Below are positions 7,370 through 55,269 of a stretch of 64,000 bases of DNA, in pieces. Each line of letters opens with the position of its first letter. Within the stretch, counting starts at the first letter, position 1. Below the pieces are notes generated by a model. That model saw nothing but the letters and a program-made list of their open reading frames with translations. It made no database searches and was not told where the DNA came from. The stretch comes from Candidatus Poseidoniia archaeon (GTDB taxonomy: Archaea; Thermoplasmatota; Poseidoniia; MGIII; CG-Epi1). Location: contig JASMLC010000003.1 of NCBI GenBank assembly GCA_030748895.1, positions 78,594-142,593 on the forward strand, read 5' to 3'. The position numbers and the translations under genes were made by a program.

Positions 7370-10300
7370 TCAGAGCGGGTTGCCGTCTTCGTCGCAGGGA
7401 ACTTCTTCGCCCGAGTCGGGGTCGATGTAATAGAACGAGCCATCCTCGTCCTCGTAGATTTCGACCTCGTACTCCTCTTCGTCATCGCCCAGCTCGTCAT
7501 CGTAGTCGTCAGTAAAGCCGAAGTCCTCATCAGTGGAAGCCGCGGCACCGCTACCGCTCAGGAGGTCCATCAGGCTGCTCTCCTCCCGCGCCTCCTCGCG
7601 CGCGGTGCGGACAGACTCGATAGCCTCAATCTTGCGCTGGGTTGACTCGTATGCCTCGGTAATCTCAGTCAGCTTGGAGAACTGCTCGTCGCGCTCCATC
7701 TTGAGCACGTACGCCAGCTGTTCCTCAATCTGCCCCAGTTCGGTGCGAGTGTCGACCAGTCGGGTCAGCGTGCCGTGGAACCGGTTGGCGAGGAGCTCCA
7801 TGTCTGGCTCAGCCAGGTCAAGCTTGAGCTGTTCCTCTGCCGCAGTTTCGGCTGCCTCGGCAGCCTCGAGTTCGGCTAGCCGCTCTGTGGCGGCAATCTG
7901 CTGGGCCTTGACCAGGATTTCGTTGAAGGCCGAAAGGTGGGCCTCCAGCTTGGTCGCGACGCGGGATGCGTCGTAAGCTGCTACCTCGAGCAGTTCCTCG
8001 CGACCCTTGGAGGTCTCAAGGCGCTGTTCGACATCTGACAGACGGGCTCTTTCTTGCTTGTTCATACTTTCACCAGTAAATCCGCTCGTGCGGACGTTAT
8101 ACGCTGCAGCAGCCATCAGGAGGCCGAGAACCAGTCCGCCCACCAGGACGATGAAACTGCGGTTCCAATTATCTGCCACCATCACACTCTGGGCTTCCGC
8201 CACCACCACTTCCTGAGCCACAGTGGTAGTCACCGCGCCAGAGTTGTCAACTGCGGTGACCTGCACCTGATAGGTCCCGGGCGCCGCATAGGCGTGCTTC
8301 AGGTTCAGCGTGCTCTGACCAGTCAGGTCACTGCCGCTGAAGGAAATTTGCGAGCCATCGCCGAAGTCAACCACCAGCATCGCGATGCTGCCGTCGTCAT
8401 CGCTCGGGACTGCCAGAACAAACTCGACTGTGTGCTCCTCGACCACGCTGACGGTGTTGCCGTCAATCGTGATGCCCTCATCCTCGCTCACCGACGGTGC
8501 CGGGACCAAAGGCGCGCTGTTGGCTGCAGTTACCGCCGCGCTAAAGCTCGTGACCTGCCCGAGGCCATCGGTGGCGGTTAGCGAGATTGTGTAGTCACCT
8601 GCCGCCGCATAGGTGTAGTCCTGCGAGGCGCCGCCGTCAGCCATGCTGCTGCCGTCGCCAAAGTCCCAGTCAATCGTTAGCGCGCCGTCGGCGCCGCTCA
8701 GCGTAAAGGTGTGCGCGGAGCCAGCCAGGGTGCCGCCCGTGCTGAGCGACCAGCCTGAGGTGTCCTGCGGCAGGTTGGGAGTAATCGAAATCGCCTGCGA
8801 AGCGCCGGTGCCGTCAATCGACGGCGTGACCGTGAAGCCAGCGGAGCTCGCCGCGGTCGCGCCAGCCGGGACCATGACCGTCATCTGGACCGTCTGGAAG
8901 CCGCCCTTGGCGATGCGGAAGCTGGTCGTCGAGAAGCGCAGGTTGTCGTGGCCGGTGGTGACCACGATGGCGTAGTTGGTCGCGACGCTGCCGGTGTTGG
9001 TCACCGTGACGACCGTGGTCGCCGAGGTGCCGGGGTTGAGCAGGAAGCTGTCGTCAGCCGCGCTCACGCCCGCGCTACGCGCGTCGCTGGCGATGTCGAG
9101 CGTCGCGCTCGCGCTGTCATCGTCGGTGGCAACCGATATTGAGTAGCTGCTGCCAGCCGGAGTATCTTCGGGGACGCTAATCCAGACGCGGAAGTCGAAG
9201 CTGGCTCCCGCGGCGATTACACCGGTAGAGGTGGTATTCAGCGTCGCCCAGCCATTGGCCTCGCTGTTGCCGCTGATGTCGAAGCTGTAGCTCGCGTCGC
9301 CGTTACCGGTGCTGGTGACGGTGCCCGAAATCTGGAAAGAATCACCGGGATACGCTGCTGAAACTGCACCGAGCGAGATGCTCGAGCCAGTCACCAGCCC
9401 GGCGCTGCTGTCGGCCGAGTCGCTGTCGGAAGCGCCGCCGGTCGCGGTGAGCGTTACCGTGTCGCCCGCACCGTGCGCTGCGCCTGCGGGGACGTCGTGC
9501 GTGACCGTAACTAGCCGCACCTCGCCCATGCCGAGGCTCATCCCGCTGGAGGAAGCATCTGAAGCCCAGCTGCTGCTGGTCGAGATTGAGTAAGTATTGT
9601 CATAGTTGCCAGTATTCTGCACCGTGAAGGTGTGGGTCGTCGAACTGCCCGGTGCACCTTCCTGCGCGCTGGAGACTGCGGTAACTGCGACACCCTGCAC
9701 TAGCCCGACTGAGTAGCCCATGCTGTGCGAATCGGTCGCGGTGCCGTCGTTCTGCGAGGCGATATCGACGTCAAGCTGGTTCATAACGCCGTAGGTCAGG
9801 AAGGGGACGGTGATAGTGACGTCGAAGGTGGCCGAGCTGTTGTAGGCAACATCAACCGTCGCCGGGAAGCTAAGGTCCCAGCTTGCAAAGTTGCTGGCGC
9901 CGATGGTGTAAATGTCATCGGCATTGCCGCTGTTAGTAATCGTGAAGGTAACGGTGCGGTCACCCGGCGCGCCTGAGGTGTCAGCCGGCTCATCCATATC
10001 GGCGCCACCCACATAGTCGACGAAGAAGCTCGCAGTGCCGGCATCGCCGGTTGCGGGCACACCGAAACTATCGGTGGCACTGAAGGTAACAGTGCGAGTG
10101 CCACCACGGTCAATGAGGTCTGCCAGGTCAAGCGTGGCTGAATAGGTACCATCACTGTTGTCGTTGAGCGTGAGGATTCCATAGTGCTGGAGGTCGGCCG
10201 AAACTGTAAGTGAATCCCCATCGTCCTCGTTAATGTCACTGGCGCTGGCAGTGAAGGTGTAGGTGTCACCGGCACGTTCTGCAGTCCCGTTGGCCGTGAA

Positions 10301-11866
10301 GGCCGGCGCGTCGTTGACCGCAATCGAGCCGCCCGAAAGCTGTGCGGCGTCGTTGGCACCATTGTTGGCGTCGAAAGCCACGCTGTGGGAGCCCCATGCC
10401 ATAGTGCCATTGTAGGCGTACTCGGCGCCAGCAGCGTCAGCCGGGCTCTCCGAGTCGTTGGTCCGCGAGAGCGAGAAGGAGCTGCCACCGACAGTGACGG
10501 TAATGGTCGAGGCGTTAGTGCCGTTGTACTCGTGGTAGCGGACCGAGAAGTTGAAGTCATTGTTCTCACCGGCACTCGTCGGGGAAACCGAAGAGTCAGT
10601 CAGCCACGGAACATCTGTGCGTACCCAAACCGAGCCCGTCTCCACGTTAGAGGCGTCCATGCTGTCGTTCGAACTGGCAGCGAACACCGTCTTACCAGCT
10701 GCGAATACCTGGCTGTGCTCGTACTGCTCACCGTTGGTATAGTCACCATCACCACCTGCGGAAGCCGTCATGGTGACCTCGGTCCCGCTACAGCCATCAC
10801 TCAGGTCATCGTCACCGACACAGAGCGTAATCGAGCTGGGCGCCTGACCATTGACATCGGTGTAAGTAACGGTCACCGTAGCTGGATTAATCGGCAGCTG
10901 CACCGTTGAAGGCGTCGCCGCAATGGAGCTCAGGACCGGTTCGTCATTAACGCGAGGGCCATCGTAGGTATCGGAGGTTGCGTCGGCCTCCCCGTCAGAA
11001 CTAGTGAAGTAGAAGCTATGCATCCCCAAGCCAAGGTCGTCTGCCTGAGTGAACGAATGCTCGTAAACCTCACCATTAGTGAAATCTCCATCGTTACTGC
11101 TGGAGGAGGACATTACGTAAGCCGGAGTCTCGCCGTCAATGTGCAAAATCACCTCATCACCTGAAGGAGCGTCGCCGTCAAGGTCGGTGTAAGTGACCTG
11201 GAAGCCCACCGAGTCACTCGCGGAGATGGGCCAGTTGGACTCTCCCGGAGAAACCTGGCCGCCCGTGAGAGTCGGGGCGCGGTTCTGCTGGACCAGCGGA
11301 AGGCTCAGGTCCCATGCTTCCTCGTCTCCGACCTGACACTCCTCGGTGGGGCCGACGAGCCAGATACAGCTCATGCTGGCTATGTAGAAGGTGACGTCCC
11401 CATGGTGCTCTGAGGGTGCCCAAGCAAATTCCCACGACAAAGATTCGTCTCCGTCATCTTCGGAGTTGCTCATGATGTAGTCGTAACCATCCGAAGCGGT
11501 AACGAGGGTTGTATCACCCACCTCAATCGAGAAATTGCCGACTGAGTCGCCATTACCGTTGATAACCACCATCTCAAAACCGAACTTGTCGTGACCGCTG
11601 CCACTCACAACTACGTCGATGTCTACGTCCTCGCCGGGCACGTACTCTTCAACGCTGAGCGTTACGTCCAGCGAACTCTCACCATCGTTGGGATTAGCGT
11701 CGGTGTGGCATGCGGACGACGTGCAGTCACCATCGCCCGGCGCGCTGGAATAGCCTGGGTCAAGATCTCCGCCCTGATGTCCCTGCACATAACCTGCAGC
11801 GATGATGACTATCACCGTCACAATCATGATACCTGCCAATAGTTGTTCCGGCCGACGTGTCAGCAT
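7370..11866 (-). CDS. Giant acidic cell-surface protein: N-terminal signal anchor, reeler-like module, multiple PKD/Ig-like repeats, a C-terminal TM helix and a cytoplasmic acidic coiled-coil tail
   Basis: ATG at 11866 has a GGTG RBS 5 nt upstream. TM/signal MLTRRPEQLLAGIMIVTVIVIIAAGY. PKD signatures WDFGDGSSMADGG...YTYAAAGDYTISLTATD and VVDFGDGSQISFSG...HAYAAPGTYQVQVTAVD. Second TM SFIVLVGGLVLGLLMAAAAY, then an E/D-rich coiled coil ending DEDGSFYYIDPDSGEEVPCDEDGNPL. Rich in D, S, T and G. Confidence 0.8.
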   Translation of the reverse strand: MLTRRPEQLLAGIMIVTVIVIIAAGYVQGHQGGDLDPGYSSAPGDGDCTSSACHTDANPNDGESSLDVTLSVEEYVPGEDVDIDVVVSGSGHDKFGFEMVVINGNGDSVGNFSIEVGDTTLVTASDGYDYIMSNSEDDGDESLSWEFAWAPSEHHGDVTFYIASMSCIWLVGPTEECQVGDEEAWDLSLPLVQQNRAPTLTGGQVSPGESNWPISASDSVGFQVTYTDLDGDAPSGDEVILHIDGETPAYVMSSSSSNDGDFTNGEVYEHSFTQADDLGLGMHSFYFTSSDGEADATSDTYDGPRVNDEPVLSSIAATPSTVQLPINPATVTVTYTDVNGQAPSSITLCVGDDDLSDGCSGTEVTMTASAGGDGDYTNGEQYEHSQVFAAGKTVFAASSNDSMDASNVETGSVWVRTDVPWLTDSSVSPTSAGENNDFNFSVRYHEYNGTNASTITVTVGGSSFSLSRTNDSESPADAAGAEYAYNGTMAWGSHSVAFDANNGANDAAQLSGGSIAVNDAPAFTANGTAERAGDTYTFTASASDINEDDGDSLTVSADLQHYGILTLNDNSDGTYSATLDLADLIDRGGTRTVTFSATDSFGVPATGDAGTASFFVDYVGGADMDEPADTSGAPGDRTVTFTITNSGNADDIYTIGASNFASWDLSFPATVDVAYNSSATFDVTITVPFLTYGVMNQLDVDIASQNDGTATDSHSMGYSVGLVQGVAVTAVSSAQEGAPGSSTTHTFTVQNTGNYDNTYSISTSSSWASDASSSGMSLGMGEVRLVTVTHDVPAGAAHGAGDTVTLTATGGASDSDSADSSAGLVTGSSISLGAVSAAYPGDSFQISGTVTSTGNGDASYSFDISGNSEANGWATLNTTSTGVIAAGASFDFRVWISVPEDTPAGSSYSISVATDDDSASATLDIASDARSAGVSAADDSFLLNPGTSATTVVTVTNTGSVATNYAIVVTTGHDNLRFSTTSFRIAKGGFQTVQMTVMVPAGATAASSAGFTVTPSIDGTGASQAISITPNLPQDTSGWSLSTGGTLAGSAHTFTLSGADGALTIDWDFGDGSSMADGGASQDYTYAAAGDYTISLTATDGLGQVTSFSAAVTAANSAPLVPAPSVSEDEGITIDGNTVSVVEEHTVEFVLAVPSDDDGSIAMLVVDFGDGSQISFSGSDLTGQSTLNLKHAYAAPGTYQVQVTAVDNSGAVTTTVAQEVVVAEAQSVMVADNWNRSFIVLVGGLVLGLLMAAAAYNVRTSGFTGESMNKQERARLSDVEQRLETSKGREELLEVAAYDASRVATKLEAHLSAFNEILVKAQQIAATERLAELEAAEAAETAAEEQLKLDLAEPDMELLANRFHGTLTRLVDTRTELGQIEEQLAYVLKMERDEQFSKLTEITEAYESTQRKIEAIESVRTAREEAREESSLMDLLSGSGAAASTDEDFGFTDDYDDELGDDEEEYEVEIYEDEDGSFYYIDPDSGEEVPCDEDGNPL

Positions 11867-11947
11867 ATTTACACCTTTTTTGCGTGAGACGGAAGTCCTC
11901 CGTAATGGGCGGACTGACCTCTCTCGTAGCGCCTTCATACCCAAGGA

Positions 11948-27872: not shown

Positions 27873-27939
27873 AACCGGCGGGATAGAACTTGCTTATATC
27901 CCCATGCGCCCTACCGCGCTCCCCGGGAAGAGGATTATC

Positions 27940-32664: not shown

Positions 32665-33165
32665 ATGATGCGAATTCTCTACGGCACGCTGGTGCTGTTA
32701 CTCGTCGCCACGGCGGCCCACGGCGAGGCAACCTACCGCGTCGACGGACTGCCGCTCGACTACGCCCTCGGCGCGACCTACGAGGTCACGCTGACGGTGA
32801 GCGACCCCGACGCGGTGACGGGGGTCACAATCACGACCACTAACGGCTCGCTCTCCGCCGCGGATGAGTTCGGCGAAGGCGAGGCACACGACCTGCAATT
32901 CGGCGCGGACGACGGCTGGAGCTTCTTCTGGCAGGCGCCCGCCGACGTACACGAACTGGGCAAGGGCGAGGCGGAATTCAGCGTCACTTTCGCCGGCGAG
33001 GATGACTCGACCTGGGCCAGCTACGAAACGGTCGTGCGGCCGCCGCCAATCCACGCCGAGGATGAGGAAGCGACGCCCGTTTGGGCGCTGCAACTGGCAT
33101 GGGGCGGCGTCGCGCTGACTGGGATCCTGGCACTGGCTGCGGCATTCGTGCTGCGGCGCGGCTGA
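32665..33165 (+). CDS. Small exported protein with a C-terminal TM anchor
   Basis: Signal peptide MMRILYGTLVLLLVATAAHGEA. Acidic beta-rich body. C-terminal TM WGGVALTGILALAAAFVLRRG. Confidence 0.5.
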   Translation: MMRILYGTLVLLLVATAAHGEATYRVDGLPLDYALGATYEVTLTVSDPDAVTGVTITTTNGSLSAADEFGEGEAHDLQFGADDGWSFFWQAPADVHELGKGEAEFSVTFAGEDDSTWASYETVVRPPPIHAEDEEATPVWALQLAWGGVALTGILALAAAFVLRRG

Positions 33166-33251
33166 AGCGGCTATCGTCGGAGACGCGGGCGCAACGTATA
33201 TATCGGGCGACAAACGTCCCTGATACCTGCCTACGGGCAGAGGACATAACC

Positions 33252-33752
33252 ATGAAACGCAGAATTGTGAACGATGAGCAGGCGGTTTCACCTGTGATTG
33301 CGGTCATCCTGATGGTCGCAATTACGGTCGTGCTAGCCGCTGTGCTGTATGTGTGGGCCTCCAGCTTCCTGGGTGGCACCACTAAGAACGCGCCGACCGG
33401 CAGCACCATGGCAACCAAGACCTCAGGGAACGTCTGGATCGTAGAAATGATCAAGCTGAACCCGCAAGTCTCGGTGAACTCGGTCCACTGGTACCTGCTG
33501 GACATCCAGGGCAACACTGTCAGTGATGGCCTGGTATCGGCAGTCTACGGCTATTATGCCGGTGAGGGCAAGGGCGTCATCTTCGTCGACAACGACTTCG
33601 ATGGTAAGCTGAGCCCGGGCGACAAGTTCGAGGTCCACCCCGGTGAATCCGGCTCAGACCTCGAGAACACGAACTCGGTAGACGACTACAAGTTCCGTCT
33701 CAAGTTCGAGCCCACCGGCGACACCATCGGCTACGACACCCCGCTGTCATAG
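33252..33752 (+). CDS. Archaeal type IV pilin (class III signal peptide, DUF1628-type N-terminus)
   Basis: MKRRIVNDEQA|VSPVIAVILMVAITVVLAAVLYVW matches the prepilin-peptidase (PibD/FlaK) processing consensus K/R...G/A|VSPVI plus a hydrophobic helix. Confidence 0.8.
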   Translation: MKRRIVNDEQAVSPVIAVILMVAITVVLAAVLYVWASSFLGGTTKNAPTGSTMATKTSGNVWIVEMIKLNPQVSVNSVHWYLLDIQGNTVSDGLVSAVYGYYAGEGKGVIFVDNDFDGKLSPGDKFEVHPGESGSDLENTNSVDDYKFRLKFEPTGDTIGYDTPLS

Positions 33753-48097: not shown

Positions 48098-49735
48098 TCA
48101 CACAGCGTAGCCGTAACTCCAGTAGAAAGCGAGCTCGTCGCCAGCGTAGATGCGATAGCAGAACCAGTCTAGCCAGCGGTAGTGGGTGCTGCTGACGATG
48201 GACTCGGGAATGCTGGCGCTGCCGGCTGCCTCGGGAAAGGCGAGGTTCACCAGCGAGAGACTGCGGTCAGCCGAGATGTTCTCGTTGAACTCGTTCCGGT
48301 TTTCCCACGTCCAGAGATGGTCGTGCTGCTCCGTGAAGAGCACGCGCCAGCCAAGGTATTCCAGCTCCATCGCGGCCGAGTCGATAACGCCCTGCGCCAG
48401 CGCATCGGCGTCGCGCGTTGCGACCATCTCCGAATAGGCGTCGACCCGTCGAGTGCGCTTAATGTCGTTGGCCTCGAATAGTTCGCCGTCGGCGTGCGCG
48501 CTGCCCCAGAATGCGGCGGCGATGGTCGGCTCGCGCACATGGTAGCTGTAGCCAGTCTCCGGCCGCTCCATGTGGTCGATGCGGTCGCGCAGGTCGACCG
48601 CGGCCGAGACTCCCGACAGCACGAATAGCGCCGCCACCAGCGCCGCCCGGCCATGACGGGATGGCAGTTCACGCAGCAGCATCTCGGCGCCCGGGCCGAC
48701 CAGCAGCAGCATCCCGGCCAGTAGCAGATAGACAAGGTAGATGCGGTCGAGGGCGACGTAGGCGCCGAGCGCCAGCCACGCCAGCGCCAGCCAGATACCC
48801 AGCGCCGGGCGCCCCTGCTGAAGCGTGCCGCCAGCGCCGAGCAGCGCCAGCAGCAGCAGCGGCCCACCGAGCAAGCCATAATGCACCGCGAGGTTGGCGA
48901 ACCGCACCGGCAGCGTTTCGCCCTCGAAAAGATAGACGCTGAAGAGGCCCTCCGACGGAGCGTAGAGCGTGCCGCCGAGGTAGGAGAGGTAGGCGAGGTA
49001 AATGCCAAGCCCGGCACAGAAGGCGACACCCTGCCGCGCGGCGCGCTCGCGGTCGAGCGCGCCCGCCTGCCAGCGACTGAGCGCCGCCGCGAGCGCGAAC
49101 GCCAGCAGGAAGCCCGGCAGCAGCAGCCCCATGCGGTGGACCGCCGGCAGCGCCAGCCCCAGCGCCAGCGCCAGCGCGGCGAGCCGCTCCGGATGGCGGC
49201 CGTAGCGACGATGCTGGCTGCGTAGCAGCGCCCAGAGGAAGAGCGGCAGCAGCACTACCAGCAGGTAGCGCAGCGAAAGTCGCCAGAGTGCGAAGGTGAT
49301 GAAGCGCGGCGCGACCGCGAACGAGAGCGCCGCCAGCCAGCGTGCCGACGGCGAGACGCCCAGTTCGCCCGCCAGCAGCCACATCCCGGCGACGCCGAGC
49401 AGCGATATGGCGAGCGAGAGCACCAGCGACGACCCTTCGAAACCGAGGCCCGTGGTTTCCTCGAAGGCGGCGGTCAGCGCCAGGTGGCCTCCCGGGGAGG
49501 TGCCGGGGTAGAGCCCGAAATACGCCGCGGGATGGAGCAGCCACTCCATTGCGCCGGCATCGCGCAGCGACGCAACCTGCACGAAATACTCGAAGCTGTC
49601 GCTGCCGGTCGGGCGAGGCGTCAGGGGCCAGCGTAGCAGCAGCGTCACCGCCATCAGGAGTGCGCCCGCAACCCGGGGGAGAGGCCGGCCCATGGCGGTG
49701 CAGCCAGCGCGTGCTAAAAGCGGCTGCTGCGCCAC
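48098..49735 (-). CDS. Large polytopic membrane protein (putative GT-C-like glycosyltransferase; function uncertain)
   Basis: At least 10 predicted TM helices followed by a soluble C-terminal domain of about 150 aa. No AglB WWDYG motif. Confidence 0.5.
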   Translation of the reverse strand: MAQQPLLARAGCTAMGRPLPRVAGALLMAVTLLLRWPLTPRPTGSDSFEYFVQVASLRDAGAMEWLLHPAAYFGLYPGTSPGGHLALTAAFEETTGLGFEGSSLVLSLAISLLGVAGMWLLAGELGVSPSARWLAALSFAVAPRFITFALWRLSLRYLLVVLLPLFLWALLRSQHRRYGRHPERLAALALALGLALPAVHRMGLLLPGFLLAFALAAALSRWQAGALDRERAARQGVAFCAGLGIYLAYLSYLGGTLYAPSEGLFSVYLFEGETLPVRFANLAVHYGLLGGPLLLLALLGAGGTLQQGRPALGIWLALAWLALGAYVALDRIYLVYLLLAGMLLLVGPGAEMLLRELPSRHGRAALVAALFVLSGVSAAVDLRDRIDHMERPETGYSYHVREPTIAAAFWGSAHADGELFEANDIKRTRRVDAYSEMVATRDADALAQGVIDSAAMELEYLGWRVLFTEQHDHLWTWENRNEFNENISADRSLSLVNLAFPEAAGSASIPESIVSSTHYRWLDWFCYRIYAGDELAFYWSYGYAV

Positions 49736-49824: not shown

Positions 49825-50520
49825 GTGGCTCTTCGAAAAAGACGTAATTTCGGACTGATTTTCGCATTGCTTTCAGCCGCACTCCTGACGGGCGGAAGCG
49901 CATTCGGGTATTCCGGAGGCGGTGACGCCGGCGGCGATGACTGGGCTGCTGACGTGATGCTCCATGGTTGCAACTGCCACAATCCCGACCAGAGCGGAAC
50001 TGGCCTCTGGTCGCTCGAGAACTTCCCGGCGCGCTACGAACCGGGAGCGACTTACAACCTGACGCTCACGATTGCAGACAGCGGCGTCAGTGACGCTGCC
50101 GACCCGGCAGCGGCGGGCGGCTTCCTGATGCGCGTCACCAACGGCAGCTTCGAGGGCGGCACCGATTTCTGGGTGAACGACGATAGTCGCATGCTCTCGC
50201 ACAACGCCGATTCGGATGACCAGCGCAACTGGACTGTGGCGTGGACTGCGCCCGAGGAGGGCAGCGGCGACGCAGTGCTGACCGTCTACTTCAACGTCGT
50301 CAACGGTGAGAACGGCAACGATCCCGGCGACGGCTGGACCCGGCTCGTAGCAGTCTCGCTCGGGACGCCGCAGGCGCTGGAGGACGAAGTGGGTATCCAC
50401 GAACTGGGGGTCAGCCTGAAACAGTACTGGATTGGGCTTATCGGTATCGGCATCACGATGGTCTTCGTGCTGCTGGCGTACATCGTACTACGAGGGGGGA
50501 GCGCCAATTACCGGGGTTAA
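49825..50520 (+). CDS. Exported reeler-like beta-sandwich protein with a C-terminal TM anchor. First gene of the Rieske/cyt b operon.
   Basis: GTG start with GGAGGT 5 nt upstream and a TATA (cattatatagg) further upstream. Signal LIFALLSAALLTGGSAFG. Motif HGCNCH...Y.PG.TY.L.L...GF.M.V.NG...W.VAW.AP.EGSGD.V.F. C-terminal TM IGLIGIGITMVFVLLAYIVL. Confidence 0.6.
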   Translation: MALRKRRNFGLIFALLSAALLTGGSAFGYSGGGDAGGDDWAADVMLHGCNCHNPDQSGTGLWSLENFPARYEPGATYNLTLTIADSGVSDAADPAAAGGFLMRVTNGSFEGGTDFWVNDDSRMLSHNADSDDQRNWTVAWTAPEEGSGDAVLTVYFNVVNGENGNDPGDGWTRLVAVSLGTPQALEDEVGIHELGVSLKQYWIGLIGIGITMVFVLLAYIVLRGGSANYRG

Positions 50521-50536
50521 CGAAATCCTCGAGCAG

Positions 50537-50872
50537 GTGGCTCGCGGCGAGCTGACGCAGGCGGACGCGCAGAAGCTGCTCGGCACCCGCGGTGACGAGC
50601 AGCTCGGCGCCATCCGGCACGAGACGCCGGCGCCGGAGCAGCTCTCGATTTTTGCAATTATCATGCTGCTGATGGTGGTGCAACTGCTCTACGACGCGCT
50701 CTTCATCTACGGACTGCTCGAGGGGTGGGACCAGACTTTCCTCTCGTTCATCATCGGAATGGCGATGCTGACGTTCGGGCTGATGCTCGACCTCTACCGC
50801 CGCAGCTTCCTGCCCGACGTACTTGAGACCAAGCGCCGCCGCGACAAGGTCGTGCCGCGGCTGGAGCGATAG
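50537..50872 (+). CDS. Small two-TM membrane protein (start uncertain)
   Basis: The ORF continues in frame behind the reeler gene. GTG at 50537 or ATG near 50660. Hydrophobic helices IFAIIMLLMVVQLLYDALFIY and FLSFIIGMAMLTFGLML. Confidence 0.35.
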   Translation: MARGELTQADAQKLLGTRGDEQLGAIRHETPAPEQLSIFAIIMLLMVVQLLYDALFIYGLLEGWDQTFLSFIIGMAMLTFGLMLDLYRRSFLPDVLETKRRRDKVVPRLER

Positions 50873-51547
50873 ATGGCGGTCACGCGACGCGACTTCCTGA
50901 AAGGCGCGCTGGCGCTTGCCGGCAGCGGCCTTGGCGGTGCGCTGGCAGTGCCGGGACTCAAGACGCTGCTGCCGCCACCGGTAACGCACTGCAACCCAGA
51001 CGAGGTGCATGACACGCTGCTCTACAAGGAGCGGGAGCCGGGAACGTGGTACGAGCCGATGGCGGGCAACGTGGCGCGCAAGGAGGACTTCGCGCTGAAC
51101 CAGTCGGCAATGGTAACCTGGGCGCCGAAGGAACTGGAAGCGGAGCTGGGGAGCTGCGAAGCCGTGCTGACGCTGGTGAAGGTCCCGACCGAGGATTCGA
51201 TGGCCGAATGGGGTATCCCTGATGACAGTGGCAACACGATGATGATGGCGTACAACACCTACAAGTGCCCGCACCTCTGCTGCAAGCCTGTTTTCAAGGA
51301 CGAGGGCATCGGCATCAGCGGAGATTCGTACGAGAATATGTTCCTCTGCCCGTGCCACCTGAGCCGCTTTGACCCGCTCTCGATTGTCGAGAACATCGAT
51401 GAGAAAGGACGGCCGGTAATGGTCGCTGAACTGGTCGAGGGGCCGTCGCCATATGGGTTACCGATTGTGCCAATCATCGAACGTGACGGCGGACTGGTGG
51501 GGAGAACAGATAAGCTGGAATGGCTGAAATATTGTGGACAGGGATGA
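50873..51547 (+). CDS. Rieske [2Fe-2S] iron-sulfur protein with a Tat signal
   Basis: Twin-arginine MAVTRRDFLKGALALAG. Rieske boxes CPHLCC and CPCHLSRF. Confidence 0.9.
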   Translation: MAVTRRDFLKGALALAGSGLGGALAVPGLKTLLPPPVTHCNPDEVHDTLLYKEREPGTWYEPMAGNVARKEDFALNQSAMVTWAPKELEAELGSCEAVLTLVKVPTEDSMAEWGIPDDSGNTMMMAYNTYKCPHLCCKPVFKDEGIGISGDSYENMFLCPCHLSRFDPLSIVENIDEKGRPVMVAELVEGPSPYGLPIVPIIERDGGLVGRTDKLEWLKYCGQG

Positions 51548-52491
51548 GAACTATAACAGCGGCTGCAACCGCCCTGGCGCTGCTCGCGCTGGCCGGGAGC
51601 GCCCGCGCCGAGACACCTCTGCTGGAGGAGTTCATGCGCGAGTACACCTTCCTGCTGATATTCCTCTCACTGGTCGGGGCGGTAGCCGGCTTCGTCTTCC
51701 TGTGGGCGACCGGGGCGCTGCCGCAGGTGCTGCTGCTGACCTGGGTCTGGCTCGATGAGCGGTTCGCATTACGGCGCTACGCCAGCCTGGCGCGGCGCGA
51801 ATACTACTCGGTGGTCTTCACGCTGCTCCCGGCGAGCGGTCGCACCTTCCCGCAGTCGCACACCGAACGGTACAACGTCAAGGCGGTCTGGTACTGGTAT
51901 CCCTTCTACTGCCTCGGCGGGCTCTCATTTCTGGCATTCATCATCCTGACGATTACCGGCATCTACCTCGGCTTTTACTATGTCCCTGACGGGGATTTTG
52001 TTGAGGACCCTGCGACCGGCGAGATGACTTCCGGCGCATATGAATCGATGGAGCTGATTATGACTGAGGTGAGTTTCGGCTACATCATGCGCGCGGTGCA
52101 CCACTGGGCGGCGCACTTCATGGTCGCTGCGGTATTCCTGCACATGATGCGGGTCTACTTCGTGGGGGCGTACCGCAACCCGCGCGAGCTGAACTGGATA
52201 CTCGGTTCAATCCTGCTGCTGGTGACCATTTTCTTCGGCTACACCGGCTACCTGCTGCCGTGGGACGAGCTGGGCTTCGCCGCCGGCTCAATCGGCCTCG
52301 AGATGGCGACCTCGATTCCGCAGATGGGGCCGCTGATAGCGCAAATCGTCTTCGGCGGGACACAGCTCACCGGCGCGACCGTGCTGCGGATGTACTGGCT
52401 GCACGTCTTCGTGCTGCCGGCGGTCGGCATCGCGCTGATGATACTGCACATGGCCATAGTCTGGATACAGGGGGAGGCGGAGCCGCACTAA
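51544..52491 (+). CDS. Cytochrome b, N-terminal (b6-like) heme-binding subunit
   Basis: ATGA overlap with the Rieske stop. Cyt b signatures W.DERFALRRY, GGLSF.AFIILTITGIYLGFYYVPDG, RAVHHWAAHFMVAAVFLHMMR, TGYLLPWD (PEWY-like). Confidence 0.85.
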   Translation: MRTITAAATALALLALAGSARAETPLLEEFMREYTFLLIFLSLVGAVAGFVFLWATGALPQVLLLTWVWLDERFALRRYASLARREYYSVVFTLLPASGRTFPQSHTERYNVKAVWYWYPFYCLGGLSFLAFIILTITGIYLGFYYVPDGDFVEDPATGEMTSGAYESMELIMTEVSFGYIMRAVHHWAAHFMVAAVFLHMMRVYFVGAYRNPRELNWILGSILLLVTIFFGYTGYLLPWDELGFAAGSIGLEMATSIPQMGPLIAQIVFGGTQLTGATVLRMYWLHVFVLPAVGIALMILHMAIVWIQGEAEPH

Positions 52492-53549
52492 TGGACGATA
52501 TCGAGACACTGATTAGTGAGTACCAGCAGGAACGGCAGGCCGATGATGCGGTGGAGCGCATCGGGCGCAAGACCGAGTTCACGGGTGAAACCCCGCGGCA
52601 GGCCCACTCGGCGCTTGAGGCGTCACACACCAAGGGCGAGCCGCTCTATCCACACGAATTGCTGCGCGACAGCGTGCTCACGCTCTATGTCACCTCGGCA
52701 CTCTTTTTCCTGTCGGCTTTCGTCCCGCCGCCGCTGCACAAAGCGGCCGACCCGGCCGCCGCGACCGCTTTCCCGCCGCCGCTGCCTGACTGGTACCTAC
52801 TCTGGGCGTTCGGCTGCCTGAAGGTGGCGTGGGATATCGAGTTCACGATTTTCGGCCACCACTTCTTCCTGATGACTGCCAAGGTGTGGGGAACGCTGGT
52901 GCAGGGGCTTATCGTGGGACTGGTCGTCGCGGTGCCATTCATCGACCGCGCTCTGGGATATCTCATCGACCCCGGGCCCAAAGAGGGAATTATGGACGTC
53001 CTGAACAGCGGCCACGCGCGACGACCCATCGAGGACCCCGTCCGCGCCGCAATCGGCGTCTGGGGCATTGCCTTCGTCGTGATGCTTTCCATCTACTCCA
53101 TCAACGCCAACATCGCGCTCTACTACCCCGCCATCACGACATCCGTGCTGGCGCAGGTGACGCTGTGGGGGCCGCTCGCGTGCGGCGGGCTGACCTATCT
53201 CTGGCTCGACCGGCGCCGCGCCGAAGGGGCGCGGCCGCTCAGCGACGAGGAGCGCTTCGAGCTCTACCGCGACGGGATTGCCAGCCGCCGCATGCAGCGC
53301 ATCTACGAGTTCAAGCTCAACCGCTGCTACCAGTGCGGCCTCTGCGACGACATCTGCCCGGTGCGCACCAACGAGGGCGAGGAGGAGCTGAACATTATCT
53401 TCAACACTTTCCAGAACGAGCACGACGGCGTCGCGAAATGGTCGTGCATCACCTGCGGGATGTGCACCGCCATCTGCCCGCAGAACATCGAATACGTGGA
53501 TTACGTCCTCGAGCAGCGCGCAATAGCGCTGCAAGGAGCCGCAACATGA
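52491..53549 (+). CDS. Cytochrome b C-terminal (subunit IV-like) domain fused to a 2x[4Fe-4S] ferredoxin domain
   Basis: TAATG overlap. PetD-like PPLPDWYLLWAFGCLK plus TM helices, then CYQCGLCDDICP and CITCGMCTAICP. Confidence 0.8.
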   Translation: MDDIETLISEYQQERQADDAVERIGRKTEFTGETPRQAHSALEASHTKGEPLYPHELLRDSVLTLYVTSALFFLSAFVPPPLHKAADPAAATAFPPPLPDWYLLWAFGCLKVAWDIEFTIFGHHFFLMTAKVWGTLVQGLIVGLVVAVPFIDRALGYLIDPGPKEGIMDVLNSGHARRPIEDPVRAAIGVWGIAFVVMLSIYSINANIALYYPAITTSVLAQVTLWGPLACGGLTYLWLDRRRAEGARPLSDEERFELYRDGIASRRMQRIYEFKLNRCYQCGLCDDICPVRTNEGEEELNIIFNTFQNEHDGVAKWSCITCGMCTAICPQNIEYVDYVLEQRAIALQGAAT

Positions 53550-54430
53550 GTCGCACCGAACCCTACGCCCGCACCATCCCGCACCCGCTCTTCGAGCGCA
53601 TGATAATCAACGACGCCGGTACGCCCGACGAGGCGCCGTGGCAGCCCGAGCGGCAGCACGAATACGGCTACTTCCCCGGTTGCGTCGACTTCATGGATGT
53701 CGAAGTCAAGTTTTCGCACCTCAACAAGGGCGACGCCGACCACGCCTCGATTGCCGCCGCGGCTATCAAGCTGATGAACGCCGCCGGTATCGACCCGCTG
53801 ATTCTCGACATGAACTCGTTCAAGTGCTGCGGGCACGACCCGCTCTGGCAAGGCCAACTGGAGGTCTTCGACGAATTGAAGGCGCACAACCTGCGGCGCA
53901 TGCAGGAGAGTGGCATCCGCACGCTGGTCGTCACCTGCGCTGAAGGCTACCGCACCTTCGCGGTCGACTACGACCTGCCCGGCCAAGGCATCCAGGTCGA
54001 GCACATCACGCAGACGTTGCGCGGGCGCGGGTTGAAGTTCAAGTCGCCCGAACCGGTGCGCGTCACCTTCCATGACCCGTGCCGCCTCGGCCGCATGATG
54101 GGCGAATACGACGCGCCGCGCGACCTTATCCAATTGGTGGACGGCGCCGAGATGGTCGAGCTGGAGAACAGCCGCGAGAAGGCGCTCTGCTGCGGCGTTT
54201 CGTCGATGATGTATTGCAATGACGCGACCAAGGCGGTGCGCAAGAAACGGCTCGATCAGGGCACCGACGCCGAAATCCAGGTGATGCTGGGCGGCTGTCC
54301 CAAGTGCTACATGCACATGCAGTGCATGCTCAACGAAGAGCGCATGGACCCCGGCGAGCACAACCACGCGTTCGAGATGCTGGACCTGATGCAGTTCCTC
54401 TCCGCCTGCCTCGTCGAGGAAGCCGCCTGA
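53546..54430 (+). CDS. HdrB/GlpC-like CCG-domain (Cys-rich) protein
   Basis: Two CCG domains: FPGC...CCGHD and HDPCRLGR...CCGVSS, plus GGCPKCYMHMQC. GGAG RBS. ATGA overlap with the upstream gene. Confidence 0.8.
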   Translation: MSRTEPYARTIPHPLFERMIINDAGTPDEAPWQPERQHEYGYFPGCVDFMDVEVKFSHLNKGDADHASIAAAAIKLMNAAGIDPLILDMNSFKCCGHDPLWQGQLEVFDELKAHNLRRMQESGIRTLVVTCAEGYRTFAVDYDLPGQGIQVEHITQTLRGRGLKFKSPEPVRVTFHDPCRLGRMMGEYDAPRDLIQLVDGAEMVELENSREKALCCGVSSMMYCNDATKAVRKKRLDQGTDAEIQVMLGGCPKCYMHMQCMLNEERMDPGEHNHAFEMLDLMQFLSACLVEEAA

Positions 54431-55269
54431 TGGCTGGCATCGACCGACAATACCTTTCCGCCTGGAAGCAGGCCGCGACGCACGACGGCGACAGCGAGCC
54501 GGTGCAAATCTGGACGGAGGATGGCAGCTACGGCGGCCTCGACTCGGGCAAGCTGGGAATCTGGGGCACCGTCGTCGGCGTCGATTTCGACATGTGCATC
54601 GCCGACGGGGCGTGCATCGACGCCTGCCCGGTCGACGTCTACGAGTGGCTCGAGACGCCGGGCCACGCCGCGTCGGACAGGAAGGCATTCATGGTGCGCG
54701 AGCCGGACTGCATCGTCTGTCGTGCCTGTGAGGAAGCGTGCCCAGTTGATGCGGTACTCATCACTGCTCCGGGCGACGTCGAGGCTGCGATAGCGGGCGC
54801 GGACACCGCATCCGCCCCGGCCGTTGCGGAAGCGGCCGTCACTGAGAGCGAAGCCCCGGCCGAAGCCGCCGTAGCGGCCGAACCGACGAACGCGGCGCTG
54901 GCGTGGGAGCCGAAGTCCGACGGCTGGCTACAGCGCGTGAAGGCGTCGCTGGTGGACGCCGACCTGCCCGATACCGGACTGGCGAAGGCGAAGCCGCTCT
55001 TCAAGGAGCTGCGCAAGGAAAGGCTCGATTCACTTACGCGCGGCAAGGAGTTCATGGCGCTGGTGCACAACGAGAAGTGCATCGGCTGCACGCAGTGCGT
55101 CTACTTCTGCAACTTCGCATCTATTGACATGATTGGATGGGAGCTAGAGACTCGCACCGGCGCGTTCGAATCGAAAAAGGCACTGATTGTCGAGGATACC
55201 TGCACCGGCTGCACCCTCTGCGTCTTTGCCTGCCCCGTCGAAGCAATCACGATGGAAGCGCGGGCGTGA
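54430..55269 (+). CDS. Polyferredoxin (four CxxCxxCxxxCP [4Fe-4S] motifs) with a central acidic Ala/Glu/Pro linker
   Basis: CIADGACIDACP, CIVCRACEEACP, CIGCTQCVYFCN and CTGCTLCVFACP. TGATG overlap with the HdrB-like gene. Confidence 0.8.
   Translation: MAGIDRQYLSAWKQAATHDGDSEPVQIWTEDGSYGGLDSGKLGIWGTVVGVDFDMCIADGACIDACPVDVYEWLETPGHAASDRKAFMVREPDCIVCRACEEACPVDAVLITAPGDVEAAIAGADTASAPAVAEAAVTESEAPAEAAVAAEPTNAALAWEPKSDGWLQRVKASLVDADLPDTGLAKAKPLFKELRKERLDSLTRGKEFMALVHNEKCIGCTQCVYFCNFASIDMIGWELETRTGAFESKKALIVEDTCTGCTLCVFACPVEAITMEARA

What the first reader, a model, noticed from the sequence alone, without database searches (positions are those of the whole stretch)
49825..50520. Paralogous reeler-like beta-sandwich module shared by the operon-leader protein and the giant surface protein
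The exported protein at 49825 and the N-terminus of the 1499-aa surface protein (roughly 11650-11250 on the minus strand) align colinearly:
- CNCH / ACH, then Y.PG with alternating hydrophobics
- GFLMRVTNG / GFEMVVINGNG
- WTVAWTAPEEGSGDAVLTV / WEFAWAPSEHHGDVTFYI

This matches the reeler-domain pattern (CH...Y.PG...GF.lqa..G...W..AP...G.V.F) as recalled; the naming is an inference. Reeler domains in eukaryotes are coupled to DOMON/cyt b561 ferric-reductase modules. Finding one at the head of a Rieske/cyt b operon, and another on a surface adhesin, hints at an extracellular redox or metal-handling function.
Basis: inference. Interest (0 to 1): 0.55.

Follow-up and report, generated by a model that had tools for sequence, protein, structure and literature searches.

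The report
Reeler-like subunit of archaeal respiratory complex
A small exported, membrane-anchored protein with a reelin-N-like fold and an invariant Cys-x-Cys-His motif heads a Rieske/cytochrome b operon in uncultured marine group III archaea, where it probably fills the place of the missing cytochrome c1/f; a diverged copy of the same module caps a giant surface protein.

Summary
Gene A (49825-50520) and the N-terminus of the giant protein both pass the curated cut-off of NCBIfam NF041895, the "choice-of-anchor V" domain. They align colinearly (hhalign E 3e-6).

"Reeler-like" also holds:
- The only solved folds matching a confident model are F-spondin reeler domains.
- The family profile hits only spondin among PDB sequences.
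- 15 of 77 relatives hit Pfam Reeler.

The domain is therefore a catalogued family of unknown function. What appears undescribed is its context:
- A-DUF7318-Rieske-cytochrome b is fixed in all 40 marine group III genome loci and in two other lineages.
- A and DUF7318 are one polypeptide in Thermoplasmata, next to a Tat-exported molybdoenzyme.
- The domain is fused to oxidase subunit I in another marine archaeon.
- It is fused to a blue-copper domain in one further protein.

C-x-C-H and His126 are near-invariant in 136 family representatives.

Best reading: a membrane-anchored outer-face subunit that accepts electrons from the Rieske centre, like cytochrome c1/f. The cofactor is unknown (unusual haem c, or copper). 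The redox role is inferred, not shown. Moderately high interest.

The parts
49825..50520 (+). Gene A: 231-aa exported, C-terminally anchored choice-of-anchor V / Reeler-like protein; first gene of the operon
   Evidence: ORF. NF041895 71.5 bits. 73 orthologue clusters, all Poseidoniia / Marine Group III. GGAGGT 5 nt upstream of the GTG.
49825..49908 (+). Signal peptide (residues 1-28, ...SAFG|YSGGG). Sec-type: the RR in this copy is not conserved in orthologues
   Evidence: Alignment A1. N-termini of 136 family members show a hydrophobic core followed by a conserved x-P-x-G-G/GAP-like motif. The cleavage site itself is inferred.
49909..50370 (+). Reeler-like beta-sandwich ectodomain (residues 29-182): N-terminal helix plus 8 strands
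   Evidence: AF2 model pLDDT 91.5, pTM 0.88. Foldseek ranks 1-8 are F-spondin reeler domains. Profile hit to Spondin-1.
49969..49980 (+). C49-N-C51-H52, the family's hallmark Cys-x-Cys-His motif (candidate cofactor site)
   Evidence: Invariant in 19 orthologues. C49, C51 and H52 are 136/136 in diverse representatives by HMM alignment. 129 of 136 are CX1CH; six of the other seven have CX2 or CX4-CX7 spacing.
50200..50202 (+). His126 (S-H-N; family consensus T-H-T), second conserved histidine
   Evidence: 132/136 His and 4/136 Gln. Gln in both choice-V proteins of locus L054.
50371..50517 (+). Juxtamembrane segment, TM helix and cytoplasmic tail (GTPQ..IHELGV..QYWIGL..TM..RGGSANYRG), almost invariant among orthologues
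   Evidence: The same motif is in P0155 and P0261, which are 33% identical to gene A over the full-length A6 alignment. This implies specific packing in a complex rather than a generic anchor (inference).
50432..50872 (+). Gene B: DUF7318 two-TM protein. Start uncertain here: the codon that is ATG/GTG in relatives (50501) reads GCG; alternatives are TTG 50432 or GTG 50537
   Evidence: Pfam PF24002 E 1e-13. Sequence. Relatives start MPITEVNEIL/MHITEVNEIL. Fused to an A-like protein in P0261.
50873..51547 (+). Divergent Rieske iron-sulfur protein with Tat signal (CPHLCC ... CPCHLSRF)
   Evidence: Motifs. Tat signal and TIGR01416 E 3e-9. No Pfam Rieske hit at E<0.01.
51520..52491 (+). Cytochrome b, N-terminal (b6-like) part
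   Evidence: PF00033 and PF13631, E about 1e-37.
52491..53549 (+). Membrane protein at the subunit-IV (cytochrome b C-terminal) position, fused to a 2x[4Fe-4S] ferredoxin domain
   Evidence: Fer4 families. Its L054 orthologue carries Cytochrom_B_C, Fer4 and CCG in one protein.
53546..54430 (+). CCG-domain (HdrD/GlpC-like) protein
   Evidence: PF02754 E 4e-20.
54430..55269 (+). Poly-ferredoxin (4Fe-4S) protein, last gene of the conserved block
   Evidence: Fer4 families. Conserved order in 40 loci.
7370..11866 (-). Giant surface protein (about 1498 aa): signal/anchor, choice-V module, Ig/PKD/CARDB-like repeats, TM helix, acidic coiled-coil tail
11369..11809 (-). Diverged choice-of-anchor V / Reeler-like module at the tip of the giant protein: CX4CH (C-TSSA-C-H at 11705-11725); His126, Pro68 and Tyr77 equivalents lost
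   Evidence: NF041895 63.6 bits. hhalign E 3.4e-6. Column comparison.
32665..33165 (+). Third, truncated paralogue (166 aa): signal peptide, C-terminal two thirds of the domain without CxCH, TM anchor
   Evidence: Family HMM E 1.5e-11. Sequence. NF041895 30.8 bits, below cut-off.

Best explanation
Gene A encodes a Sec-exported protein. Its ectodomain is a prokaryotic Reeler-fold domain (NCBIfam choice-of-anchor V), held at the outer face of the membrane by a conserved C-terminal helix. Together with the two-helix DUF7318 protein (gene B) it is a fixed subunit of a Rieske / split-cytochrome-b quinol-oxidising complex of marine group III archaea.

I propose that it occupies the position that cytochrome c1, cytochrome f or Sulfolobus CbsA hold in other bc-type complexes. 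It would take the electron from the exported Rieske cluster and pass it towards the CuA site of the terminal oxidase. The redox cofactor would be held by the near-invariant Cys49-x-Cys51-His52 / His126 constellation: either an atypically attached haem c, or copper.

Shown: family membership, fold, operon fixation, and the fusions. Inferred: that it is a stoichiometric subunit, that it carries a cofactor, and the direction of electron flow.

The copy on the giant surface protein is a diverged paralogue that has lost His126. It is probably a non-redox tip domain.
For: 1. Membership and fold. NF041895 71.5 bits. AF2 pLDDT 91.5, with the best solved matches all F-spondin reeler domains.

2. Operon fixation. 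A-B-Rieske-cyt b-(subunit IV+Fer4)-CCG-Fer4 stands in the same order in 40/40 MGIII genome loci, down to 41-45% identity of A. The same block recurs in two further lineages, L054 and L053. Gene junctions abut or overlap.

3. Rosetta-stone fusion. P0261 (Thermoplasmata) aligns in one HSP with concatenated window A+B: 29% identity over 291 aa, E 2e-35. It sits beside a Tat-signal Mo-bisPGD oxidoreductase and another choice-V gene.

4. Oxidase link. P0244 is choice-V + TM + COX1 in a COX3-COX2-COX1 operon. The COX2 CuA motif is intact, and a second choice-V+TM gene follows. The protein is seen on more than 100 contigs.

5. P0143 fuses the domain to a plastocyanin/halocyanin domain.

6. Conservation fit for a cofactor site. 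C49, C51 and H52 are 136/136. H126 is 132/136, the rest Gln. D169 is 133, N157 is 125. The CH dyad is fixed while the first Cys spacing varies from X1 to X7, as in variant haem-c motifs.

7. The juxtamembrane/TM/tail segment is almost invariant among orthologues and recognisable in P0155 and P0261, unlike the generic sorting signals of other family members.

8. In L054 a CcmF haem lyase (WGGYWAWD) and a DsbD/CcdA-type protein lie divergently next to the operon. None of the 17 genes of that 20-kb locus has CXXCH. Apart from the Rieske box II CTCH, the only such motif is CYCH, in the two choice-V proteins.

9. The layout parallels cytochrome f: signal peptide, about 20 residues with a helix, C..CH, beta sandwich, C-terminal anchor. 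Cytochrome f is Foldseek rank 10 (E 2.3e-4, TMq 0.57).

10. The Rieske box II reads CPCHLSRF, the 'S-F' mid-high potential class of PMC4122944. Such a centre needs a fairly high-potential acceptor.
Against: - No cofactor can be seen computationally, and no biochemical data exist for any family member.
- To my knowledge CXCH is not a known haem-c attachment motif.
- No cytochrome c maturation gene was found in the window or within 8-10 kb of the MGIII operons I held, about 1 Mb in all and mostly redundant. The CcmF neighbourhood is seen in one lineage only, and that lineage has Gln in place of His126.
- Many family members are single genes or N-terminal modules of large adhesin-like proteins, with no respiratory neighbours.
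- The eukaryotic Reeler domain has no established cofactor (bioRxiv 10.1101/2023.09.01.555970).
- Similarity to cytochrome f is not significant by sequence (hhalign probability 2%).
Confidence: 0.5

Rival explanations
1. Non-redox structural or docking subunit. The Reeler-like ectodomain only stabilises the complex, tethers it to the S-layer or pseudo-periplasm, or forms the landing platform for a separate mobile carrier such as a blue copper protein. The Cys pair is a structural disulfide and the histidines are structural.
For: - The reeler domains of F-spondin and reelin are binding modules with no established cofactor, and the function of the domain in CYBDOM proteins is stated as unknown.
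- Many family members are tips of adhesin-like proteins or stand-alone anchored proteins.
- The conserved N-x-V-N-G-x-G...G-D-x-W segment looks like a structural Ca-type loop (inference).
- The variable C-Xn-C spacing (X1 to X7) also fits a disulfide-closed loop.
Against: - An i/i+2 disulfide is unusual, and the strictly invariant His directly after the second Cys is not explained by structure alone.
- The domain was recruited independently next to four different extracytoplasmic redox modules: Rieske/cyt b, COX1, Mo enzyme and cupredoxin. That is more than a scaffold needs.
- No blue-copper gene lies in or near the MGIII operon.
Confidence: 0.25
2. Maturation factor rather than electron carrier. 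The domain would be a membrane-anchored Cu(I) chaperone or thiol-disulfide oxidoreductase in the manner of Sco1 (CxxxC + His) or Cox11 (CFCF in an Ig-like fold). It would use C-x-C-H to metallate CuA/CuB, or to form the disulfide of the exported Rieske domain.
For: - A two-Cys + His ligand set on a membrane-anchored beta-sandwich resembles Sco/Cox11 chemistry (established knowledge, recalled).
- The domain is fused to COX1, with a second copy in the same cox operon.
- Rieske proteins need a disulfide next to their own CxCH box.
Against: - No sequence or fold match to Sco, Cox11 or PCuAC: nothing in Pfam at E<1 apart from Reeler, and none among the top 50 Foldseek hits.
- Assembly factors are rarely the translationally coupled first gene of a structural operon kept in 40/40 loci with a complex-specific TM helix.
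- Copper delivery does not explain the Rieske/cyt b or Mo-enzyme contexts.
Confidence: 0.12
3. Generic surface ligand-binding or adhesion module with no functional tie to the operon. Gene A would merely be co-transcribed, and like the giant protein's module it would bind an external ligand such as a glycan, metal chelate or particle.
For: - The same module sits on a 1498-aa adhesin-like protein in this window.
- Family members carry T9SS, PGF-CTERM or MYXO-CTERM sorting signals and FN3, PKD or CARDB repeats.
Against: - The A-B fusion protein, the fusion to COX1, the fixed operon position across lineages more than 60% diverged, and the conserved complex-type TM segment all argue for physical integration.
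Confidence: 0.08

Closest known systems
NCBIfam NF041895, choice-of-anchor V domain (with NF041894 MXAN_6652 family)
   Same: Both window modules score above the curated cut-off. The layout is the same: signal peptide, conserved mature N-terminus, G-C-x-C-H, about 150-aa beta sandwich, C-terminal anchor.
   Different: The family has a name but no known function. Gene A replaces the interchangeable sorting signal with a conserved complex-specific TM helix and tail, and is embedded in a respiratory operon.
Reeler domain (Pfam PF02014; F-spondin reeler structures 3COO, 2ZOT, 2ZOU; FRRS1/SDR2 and insect CG8399 CYBDOM ferric reductases)
   Same: It is the best and only clear structural match, and the only PDB sequence match of the family profile. 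Motifs are colinear (P..Y.PG.tY.vTL, GF, W..W.AP..G.v.F). It is an extracellular N-terminal position, and in CYBDOM proteins it stands next to haem domains.
   Different: Below the Pfam threshold for the window proteins. C-x-C-H stands in place of the eukaryotic C..M.P.H (the latter recalled from memory). There is no mid-domain cysteine, so the Reeler disulfide cannot form. No DOMON or b561 partner is present.
Cytochrome f (b6f) and cytochrome c1 (bc1)
   Same: Third, outer-face subunit encoded with Rieske and cytochrome b. It has a signal peptide, a Cys...Cys-His motif about 20 residues into the mature chain after a helix, a beta-sandwich body (cytochrome f) and a single C-terminal TM anchor. 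There is a weak Foldseek hit to cytochrome f.
   Different: The motif is CXCH, not CXXCH. There is no significant sequence relationship. Haem binding is untested. Cytochrome c1 is all-helical.
Sulfolobus CbsA-CbsB-SoxL2-SoxN (cytochrome b558/566 operon)
   Same: Same gene logic, as recalled and as named in PMC4122944: exported, C-terminally anchored beta-rich protein, then a small hydrophobic protein, then Rieske, then cytochrome b, in an archaeon without cytochrome c1.
   Different: CbsA is a larger, glycosylated b-type haem protein. No homology was tested or seen here.
Carrier domains fused to oxidases (cytochrome c in caa3 subunit II; halocyanin-CbaD fusion of haloarchaea, PMC8305020)
   Same: A small outer-face domain fused to an oxidase subunit in organisms that also use it in or near complex III. 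P0244 shows this pattern for the choice-V domain.
   Different: The fusion partner is subunit I, at its N-terminus through an extra TM helix. The redox nature of the domain is unproven.
Sco1 / Cox11 copper chaperones
   Same: Membrane-anchored extracytoplasmic domain with a two-Cys (+His) motif, encoded in cox operons.
   Different: Different folds and families: no Pfam hit and no Foldseek hit in the top 50. These do not occur in Rieske/cyt b operons.

Membership tests
NCBIfam NF041895 choice-of-anchor V domain | HMM score at or above the curated cut-off of 42 bits | tested here: met
   Gene A 71.5 bits. Giant-protein N-terminus 63.6 bits. The third copy at 32665-33165 scores only 30.8 bits, which is not met.
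NCBIfam NF041895 choice-of-anchor V domain | N-terminal domain after a signal peptide, followed by a C-terminal membrane or wall anchor of varying type | tested here: met
   Signal peptide and C-terminal TM helix in gene A. Relatives carry PGF-CTERM, T9SS or MYXO-CTERM signals or plain TM tails.
NCBIfam NF041895 choice-of-anchor V domain | Hallmark residues G-C-x-C-H, T-H-T, W..W.AP, N.VNG..GD.W (derived here from 136 representatives) | tested here: met
   All present in gene A. The giant-protein copy has CX4CH and lacks His126, Pro68 and Tyr77.
Pfam Reeler PF02014 | HMM score at or above the gathering threshold of 21 bits | tested here: not met
   15.0 bits (gene A) and 16.7 bits (giant protein). 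15 of 77 family relatives do hit at E<0.01, the best at 3e-7.
Pfam Reeler PF02014 | Reeler beta-sandwich fold | tested here: met
   Foldseek ranks 1-8 are F-spondin reeler domains: E 1e-6 to 8e-6, TM 0.47-0.61. The first, lower-quality model gave the same result.
Pfam Reeler PF02014 | Disulfide between the N-terminal Cys and a mid-domain Cys (feature recalled from the F-spondin structures) | tested here: not met
   The ectodomain of gene A has only C49 and C51. No conserved mid-domain Cys exists in the family.
DOMON / DM13 | Pfam or NCBIfam hit | tested here: not met
   No hit at E<=1 in either protein.
Cytochrome f / c-type cytochromes | CXXCH (or a known variant) haem-attachment motif | tested here: not met
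   Gene A has CXCH. Among 136 relatives, 129 have CX1CH and only one has CX2CH. The giant protein has CX4CH, a spacing known from some multihaem cytochromes (recalled).
Cytochrome f / c-type cytochromes | Sequence or profile homology to cytochrome f | tested here: not met
Cytochrome f is absent from the profile search of PDB sequences. Only a weak Foldseek hit, E 2.3e-4.
Cytochrome f / c-type cytochromes | Covalently bound haem; cytochrome c maturation system in the genome | not testable with these tools
   CcmF and DsbD/CcdA lie next to the orthologous operon in L054 only. None was found in the MGIII sequence held. Whole MGIII genomes could not be scanned.
Third subunit of a Rieske/cytochrome b complex (functional class) | Encoded in a conserved operon with Rieske and cytochrome b; outer-face domain with a membrane anchor | tested here: met
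   40/40 MGIII loci plus L054 and L053. Topology from the signal peptide and C-terminal TM helix.
Third subunit of a Rieske/cytochrome b complex (functional class) | Physical presence in the complex and electron transfer from the Rieske centre | not testable with these tools
   Supported only indirectly, by the A-B fusion and the conserved TM segment.
Cupredoxin (halocyanin / plastocyanin) | Pfam Copper-bind hit with C-terminal Cys..His..Met ligand loop | tested here: not met
   No hit. The Cys/His residues are N-terminal. A true cupredoxin domain occurs as a separate domain in P0143.
Sulfolobus CbsA (cytochrome b558/566) | Sequence homology to CbsA | not tested
The resemblance is in gene order only (and recall).

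The most novel reading that the evidence does not exclude
The choice-of-anchor V / Reeler fold is a previously unrecognised class of extracytoplasmic redox protein. A haem would be attached through an unprecedented Cys-x-Cys-His motif, or a Cys2His2 copper site would be formed. This would make it an archaeal counterpart of cytochrome f/c1 in the Rieske/cyt b complex, and a built-in electron donor on the haem-copper oxidase of the abundant marine Thermoplasmatota. By extension, the unexplained Reeler domain of eukaryotic CYBDOM ferric reductases (FRRS1/SDR2) would be a metal or redox site rather than an adhesion module.
Probability: 0.2. Interest if true: 0.85.

Novelty: new variant of a known kind. 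Interest (0 to 1): 0.62.

Why it matters
Archaea outside the few lineages with cytochrome c1 have Rieske/cytochrome b complexes whose electron-accepting subunit is unknown or differs by lineage. Marine group II and III archaea are among the most abundant planktonic archaea and are uncultured, so their respiratory chain is known only from gene lists.

A conserved outer-face subunit recurs here with the Rieske/cyt b complex, with the oxidase, with a blue-copper domain and with an exported molybdoenzyme. That makes it a concrete, testable candidate for the missing link between complex III and complex IV in these organisms.

It would also give a first functional handle on two things:
- A large catalogued domain family of unknown function (1373 clusters at 50% identity).
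- The eukaryotic Reeler domain in ferric-reductase-type proteins.

If the domain proves cofactor-free, the finding reduces to a lineage-specific structural subunit. That is useful for annotation but not surprising.

Tried and rejected
- **DOMON, DM13, cupredoxin, Sco, Cox11, PCuAC.** No Pfam or NCBIfam hits. Rejected as family assignments.
- **Rieske-like [2Fe-2S] on C-x-C-H + His.** Considered because CxCH is also Rieske box II. Rejected as unlikely: the signal peptides are Sec-type, the RR in this copy is not conserved, and many members are surface-exposed.
- **Homology to cytochrome f.** hhalign probability 2%. Kept only as an analogy.
- **The 205-aa gene upstream of the Thermoplasmata A-B fusion.** I guessed it was a Rieske protein (an arsenite-oxidase-like pair). 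Translation showed another choice-V protein.
- **Cytochrome c maturation genes.** A WWD-motif scan and tblastn with the L054 CcmF and DsbD found none in the window or in any MGIII locus held.
- **Blue-copper or cox genes.** None in the window or near the MGIII operon.
- **Homologue search with the giant protein's module.** Only 3 near-identical hits.
- **Homologue search with DUF7318.** Only close relatives. One more distant locus (L041) was too short to help.
- **Metagenome scan with a mixed alignment.** It returned almost only MGIII again.
- **Literature searches.** Searches on choice-of-anchor, DUF7318, reeler with haem or copper, and CXCH found no prior description of this association.
Full report
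**What is at the coordinates**

The window has 65% G+C. Its closest database matches are MAGs of Candidatus Poseidoniia / Marine Group III euryarchaeota.

Gene A (49825-50520, +) encodes 231 aa. GGAGGT lies 5 nt before its GTG start, and an ATTATATA box lies about 45 nt upstream. The protein consists of:
- a hydrophobic signal peptide (...SAFG|YSGGG);
- an ectodomain of about 150 residues;
- a C-terminal TM helix with a short basic tail.

The giant protein is ORF 7370-11944 (-). Its likely ATG is at 11866, giving about 1498 aa. It begins with a signal/anchor and the related module (ORF residues 46-192, nt 11369-11809). Ig/PKD/CARDB-like repeats follow, then a TM helix and an acidic coiled-coil tail. 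Everything else quoted is present.

**Is the paralogy real?**

Yes.
- BLASTP gives 25% identity over 118 aa, E 0.003.
- A profile of gene A orthologues aligns colinearly with the giant-protein module over 98 columns: hhalign probability 87.7%, E 3.4e-6.
- Both proteins independently exceed the 42-bit curated cut-off of NCBIfam NF041895, the 'choice-of-anchor V domain' (71.5 and 63.6 bits).

A family HMM also picked up a third copy at 32665-33165 (+). It has a signal peptide, the C-terminal two thirds of the domain and a TM anchor. It lacks the CxCH-bearing N-terminal part and scores below the cut-off at 30.8 bits.

**Is it reeler-like?**

Yes, at superfamily level.
- Pfam Reeler is the only Pfam hit of gene A, and it also hits the giant protein. 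Both are below the gathering score (15.0 and 16.7 bits against 21).
- Among 77 diverse family members, all of which hit NF041895, 15 hit Pfam Reeler at E<0.01. The best is 3e-7.
- An 89-sequence family profile searched against all PDB sequences finds only Spondin-1 reeler domains (E 0.016-0.028). The alignment is colinear through P..Y.PG.tY.vTL, the GtF region and W..W.AP..G.v.
- The first AF2 model, built from 19 orthologues, was mediocre (pLDDT 63.9). The domain-only model with the deep alignment is confident (pLDDT 91.5, pTM 0.88).
- With both models the eight best Foldseek matches in the PDB are the F-spondin reeler structures 3COO, 2ZOT and 2ZOU (E 1e-6 to 8e-6, TM 0.47-0.61). Unrelated Ig-like folds start at about 1.6e-4.
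- UniRef already labels orthologues 'Reelin domain-containing', and NCBI labels them 'choice-of-anchor V domain-containing'.

So the domain is catalogued, but no function is attached to it. I found no paper on it.

**The family signature**

An exhaustive profile search found 1373 clusters (at 50% identity) at E<=1e-3. In 136 representatives of at least 150 aa the following hold:
- Invariant: G48-C49-x-C51-H52, Pro68 and Gly99.
- His126 is 132/136, and Gln in the other four.
- Trp136 and Trp140 are 135/136.
- Asp169 is 133/136, Asn157 is 125/136, and Asn160 is 116/136 with Asp in 19 more.
- A G-G / G-A-P-like motif sits directly after the signal peptide.
- 129 of 136 have Cys-X1-Cys-His. Six of the other seven keep the CH dyad with spacings of X2 or X4-X7.

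The ectodomain contains no other cysteine. The giant-protein copy has CX4CH and has lost the equivalents of His126, Pro68 and Tyr77.

**Genomic context, the informative part**

Downstream of gene A lie, in order:
1. a DUF7318 two-helix protein (gene B);
2. a Tat-signal Rieske protein (CPHLCC...CPCHLSRF), too divergent for Pfam Rieske but hitting TIGR01416;
3. a b6-type cytochrome b;
4. a membrane protein at the subunit-IV position, fused to two [4Fe-4S] motifs;
5. a CCG (HdrD-like) protein;
6. a poly-ferredoxin.

The junctions abut or overlap. This exact order is kept in all 40 MGIII genome loci recovered, where gene A falls to 41-45% identity while cytochrome b stays above 70%.

Beyond MGIII, the contexts are:

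1. *Locus L054 (P0155).* This protein is 33-35% identical to gene A by tblastn and has the same juxtamembrane IHxxGV..YWxG..RxGS segment. Its locus reads choice-V(258 aa)-A-B-Rieske-cytochrome b-(subunit IV+Fer4+CCG)-FAD protein-Fer4.
2. *Locus L053.* It reads choice-V(346)-choice-V(499)-DUF7318-Rieske-like.
3. *P0261 from Thermoplasmata.* This is a natural fusion of A and B. It aligns in a single HSP with the concatenated window proteins (29% identity over 291 aa, E 2e-35). It lies between another choice-V+TM gene and a Tat-signal molybdopterin oxidoreductase.
4. *P0244, seen on more than 100 contigs of marine Euryarchaeota.* This is choice-V + TM helix + haem-copper oxidase subunit I, inside a COX3-COX2-COX1 operon. 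Its COX2 keeps the CuA ligands, and a second choice-V+TM gene follows.
5. *P0143.* It joins the domain to three CARDB domains and a plastocyanin/halocyanin domain.

Four other members examined are solitary genes with no respiratory neighbours: P0143 itself, P0106, P0110 and P0113. Many bacterial members are N-terminal modules of adhesin-like proteins with T9SS or other sorting signals.

**Interpretation**

Four observations point the same way:
- the fixed first-gene position;
- the fusion with gene B;
- a juxtamembrane/TM/tail segment that is nearly invariant among orthologues and recognisable across lineages;
- repeated recruitment next to extracytoplasmic redox modules.

Together they indicate that A+B is a physical membrane-anchored subunit of the Rieske/cytochrome b complex. 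It sits where cytochrome c1, cytochrome f or Sulfolobus CbsA sit.

Archaea of this kind are thought to use copper proteins rather than class I cytochromes c between the Rieske centre and the oxidase (PMC4122944; PMC8305020). The choice-V domain occurs in complex III, is fused to the oxidase, and is fused to a cupredoxin. That distribution mirrors how cytochrome c and halocyanin domains are distributed elsewhere.

I therefore commit to an electron-carrier role, using a cofactor bound at Cys49-x-Cys51-His52/His126. The Rieske signature 'S-F' after CPCH predicts a mid-to-high potential centre, which needs a fairly high-potential acceptor.

**Which cofactor?**

This is unresolved.

For haem c:
- The CH dyad is fixed while the first-Cys spacing varies, the pattern seen in variant haem-c motifs.
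- The layout resembles cytochrome f: signal peptide, conserved mature N-terminus, helix, C..CH about 20 residues in, beta sandwich, C-terminal anchor.
- Cytochrome f is Foldseek rank 10 (E 2.3e-4, TMq 0.57).
- In L054 a CcmF haem lyase (WGGYWAWD) and a DsbD/CcdA protein lie divergently beside the operon. No gene in that 20-kb locus has CXXCH. Apart from the Rieske box II CTCH, the only such motif is CYCH, in the two choice-V proteins.

Against haem c:
- To my knowledge CXCH is not a known attachment motif.
- The cytochrome f similarity is insignificant by sequence.
- The CcmF link is seen in one lineage only, and that lineage has Gln for His126.
- I found no ccm genes in the MGIII DNA held.

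Copper on a 2 Cys + 2 His set is equally compatible with Sec export, and with a His-to-Gln exchange. An Fe-S cluster is unlikely because the signal peptides are not Tat-type.

**Rivals**

- *Cofactor-free structural or docking subunit.* This is the main alternative, because solved reeler domains are binding modules and many relatives look like adhesin tips.
- *Sco/Cox11-like copper chaperone or thiol oxidoreductase.* This fits the cox context and the C-x-C chemistry. It does not fit the Rieske/cyt b and Mo-enzyme contexts or the structural-subunit features.
- *Co-transcribed adhesin.* The fusions contradict this.

**Novelty and verdict**

The domain family and its reelin-like nature are already in databases.

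I could not find any prior description of the following:
- the conserved A-DUF7318-Rieske-cytochrome b module;
- the A-B fusion;
- the oxidase and cupredoxin fusions;
- the near-absolute C-x-C-H/His signature.

Together these nominate a new kind of third subunit for archaeal bc-type complexes. I rate it a new variant of a known kind, with moderately high interest. The redox function is inferred and easily testable.

Noticed in passing
window 32665-33165 (+): Third, truncated choice-V paralogue of 166 aa. It has a signal peptide, a domain lacking the CxCH N-terminal part, and a TM anchor. It lies between a TrmB-like regulator gene (31977-32636) and a gene with an archaeal pilin-like N-terminus (33081-33752).
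   Followed up: partly
window 52491-55269 (+): The bc-type operon is unusual on the cytoplasmic side. A subunit-IV-position membrane protein is fused to two [4Fe-4S] motifs, followed by a CCG (HdrD-like) protein and a poly-ferredoxin. In L054 the first two are one 626-aa protein, followed by an FAD oxidoreductase, a ferredoxin and an FlpD/MvhD-like gene. This suggests a Rieske/cyt b core wired to an Hdr-like cytoplasmic module.
   Followed up: partly
window 50501-50503 and 50432-50537: The codon that is the ATG/GTG start of DUF7318 in relatives (MPITEVNEIL...) reads GCG in this window. Gene B here must start at TTG 50432 or GTG 50537, or the assembly carries an error.
   Followed up: partly
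window 50873-51547 (+): The Rieske protein is so divergent that Pfam Rieske gives no hit at E<0.01. Only the motifs CPHLCC / CPCHLSRF, a Tat signal and a sub-threshold TIGR01416 hit identify it.
   Followed up: partly
window 48098-49735 (-): A 545-aa polytopic membrane protein with a weak GT-C glycosyltransferase hit is transcribed divergently from gene A. A homologue matches upstream of gene A in 35 of the 40 MGIII loci. It is possibly a glycosyltransferase acting on the exported subunits.
   Followed up: no
window 27763-31917 (+): A second giant (1384-aa) exported protein, rich in N-x-S/T sequons, with a C-terminal TM helix and a Cys-rich tail. It has no choice-V module.
   Followed up: no
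L054:1786-8453 (-): DsbD/CcdA-like (560 aa), PQQ-propeller/Big-domain protein (823 aa) and CcmF (764 aa) are arranged divergently beside the orthologous choice-V/Rieske/cyt b operon, in a locus without any CXXCH protein.
   Followed up: partly
L054:11886-14384 (+): In this lineage cytochrome b carries an N-terminal extension of about 590 aa with a Big_5 (bacterial Ig-like) domain.
   Followed up: no
P0098 (3662 aa, on a 2.2-Mb contig): A giant protein with 14 matched stretches of the choice-V profile. The best-scoring stretch starts at profile position 39, after the CxCH motif. It looks like a tandem array of the domain.
   Followed up: no
L045:6403-7365 (-) and L045:13000-14346 (-): Next to the Thermoplasmata A-B fusion / molybdoenzyme cluster lie a tetrapyrrole-methylase-family gene and MobA/MobB-like genes. 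The MobA/MobB-like genes fit Mo-bisPGD cofactor supply; whether the methylase bears on haem synthesis is unknown.
   Followed up: no
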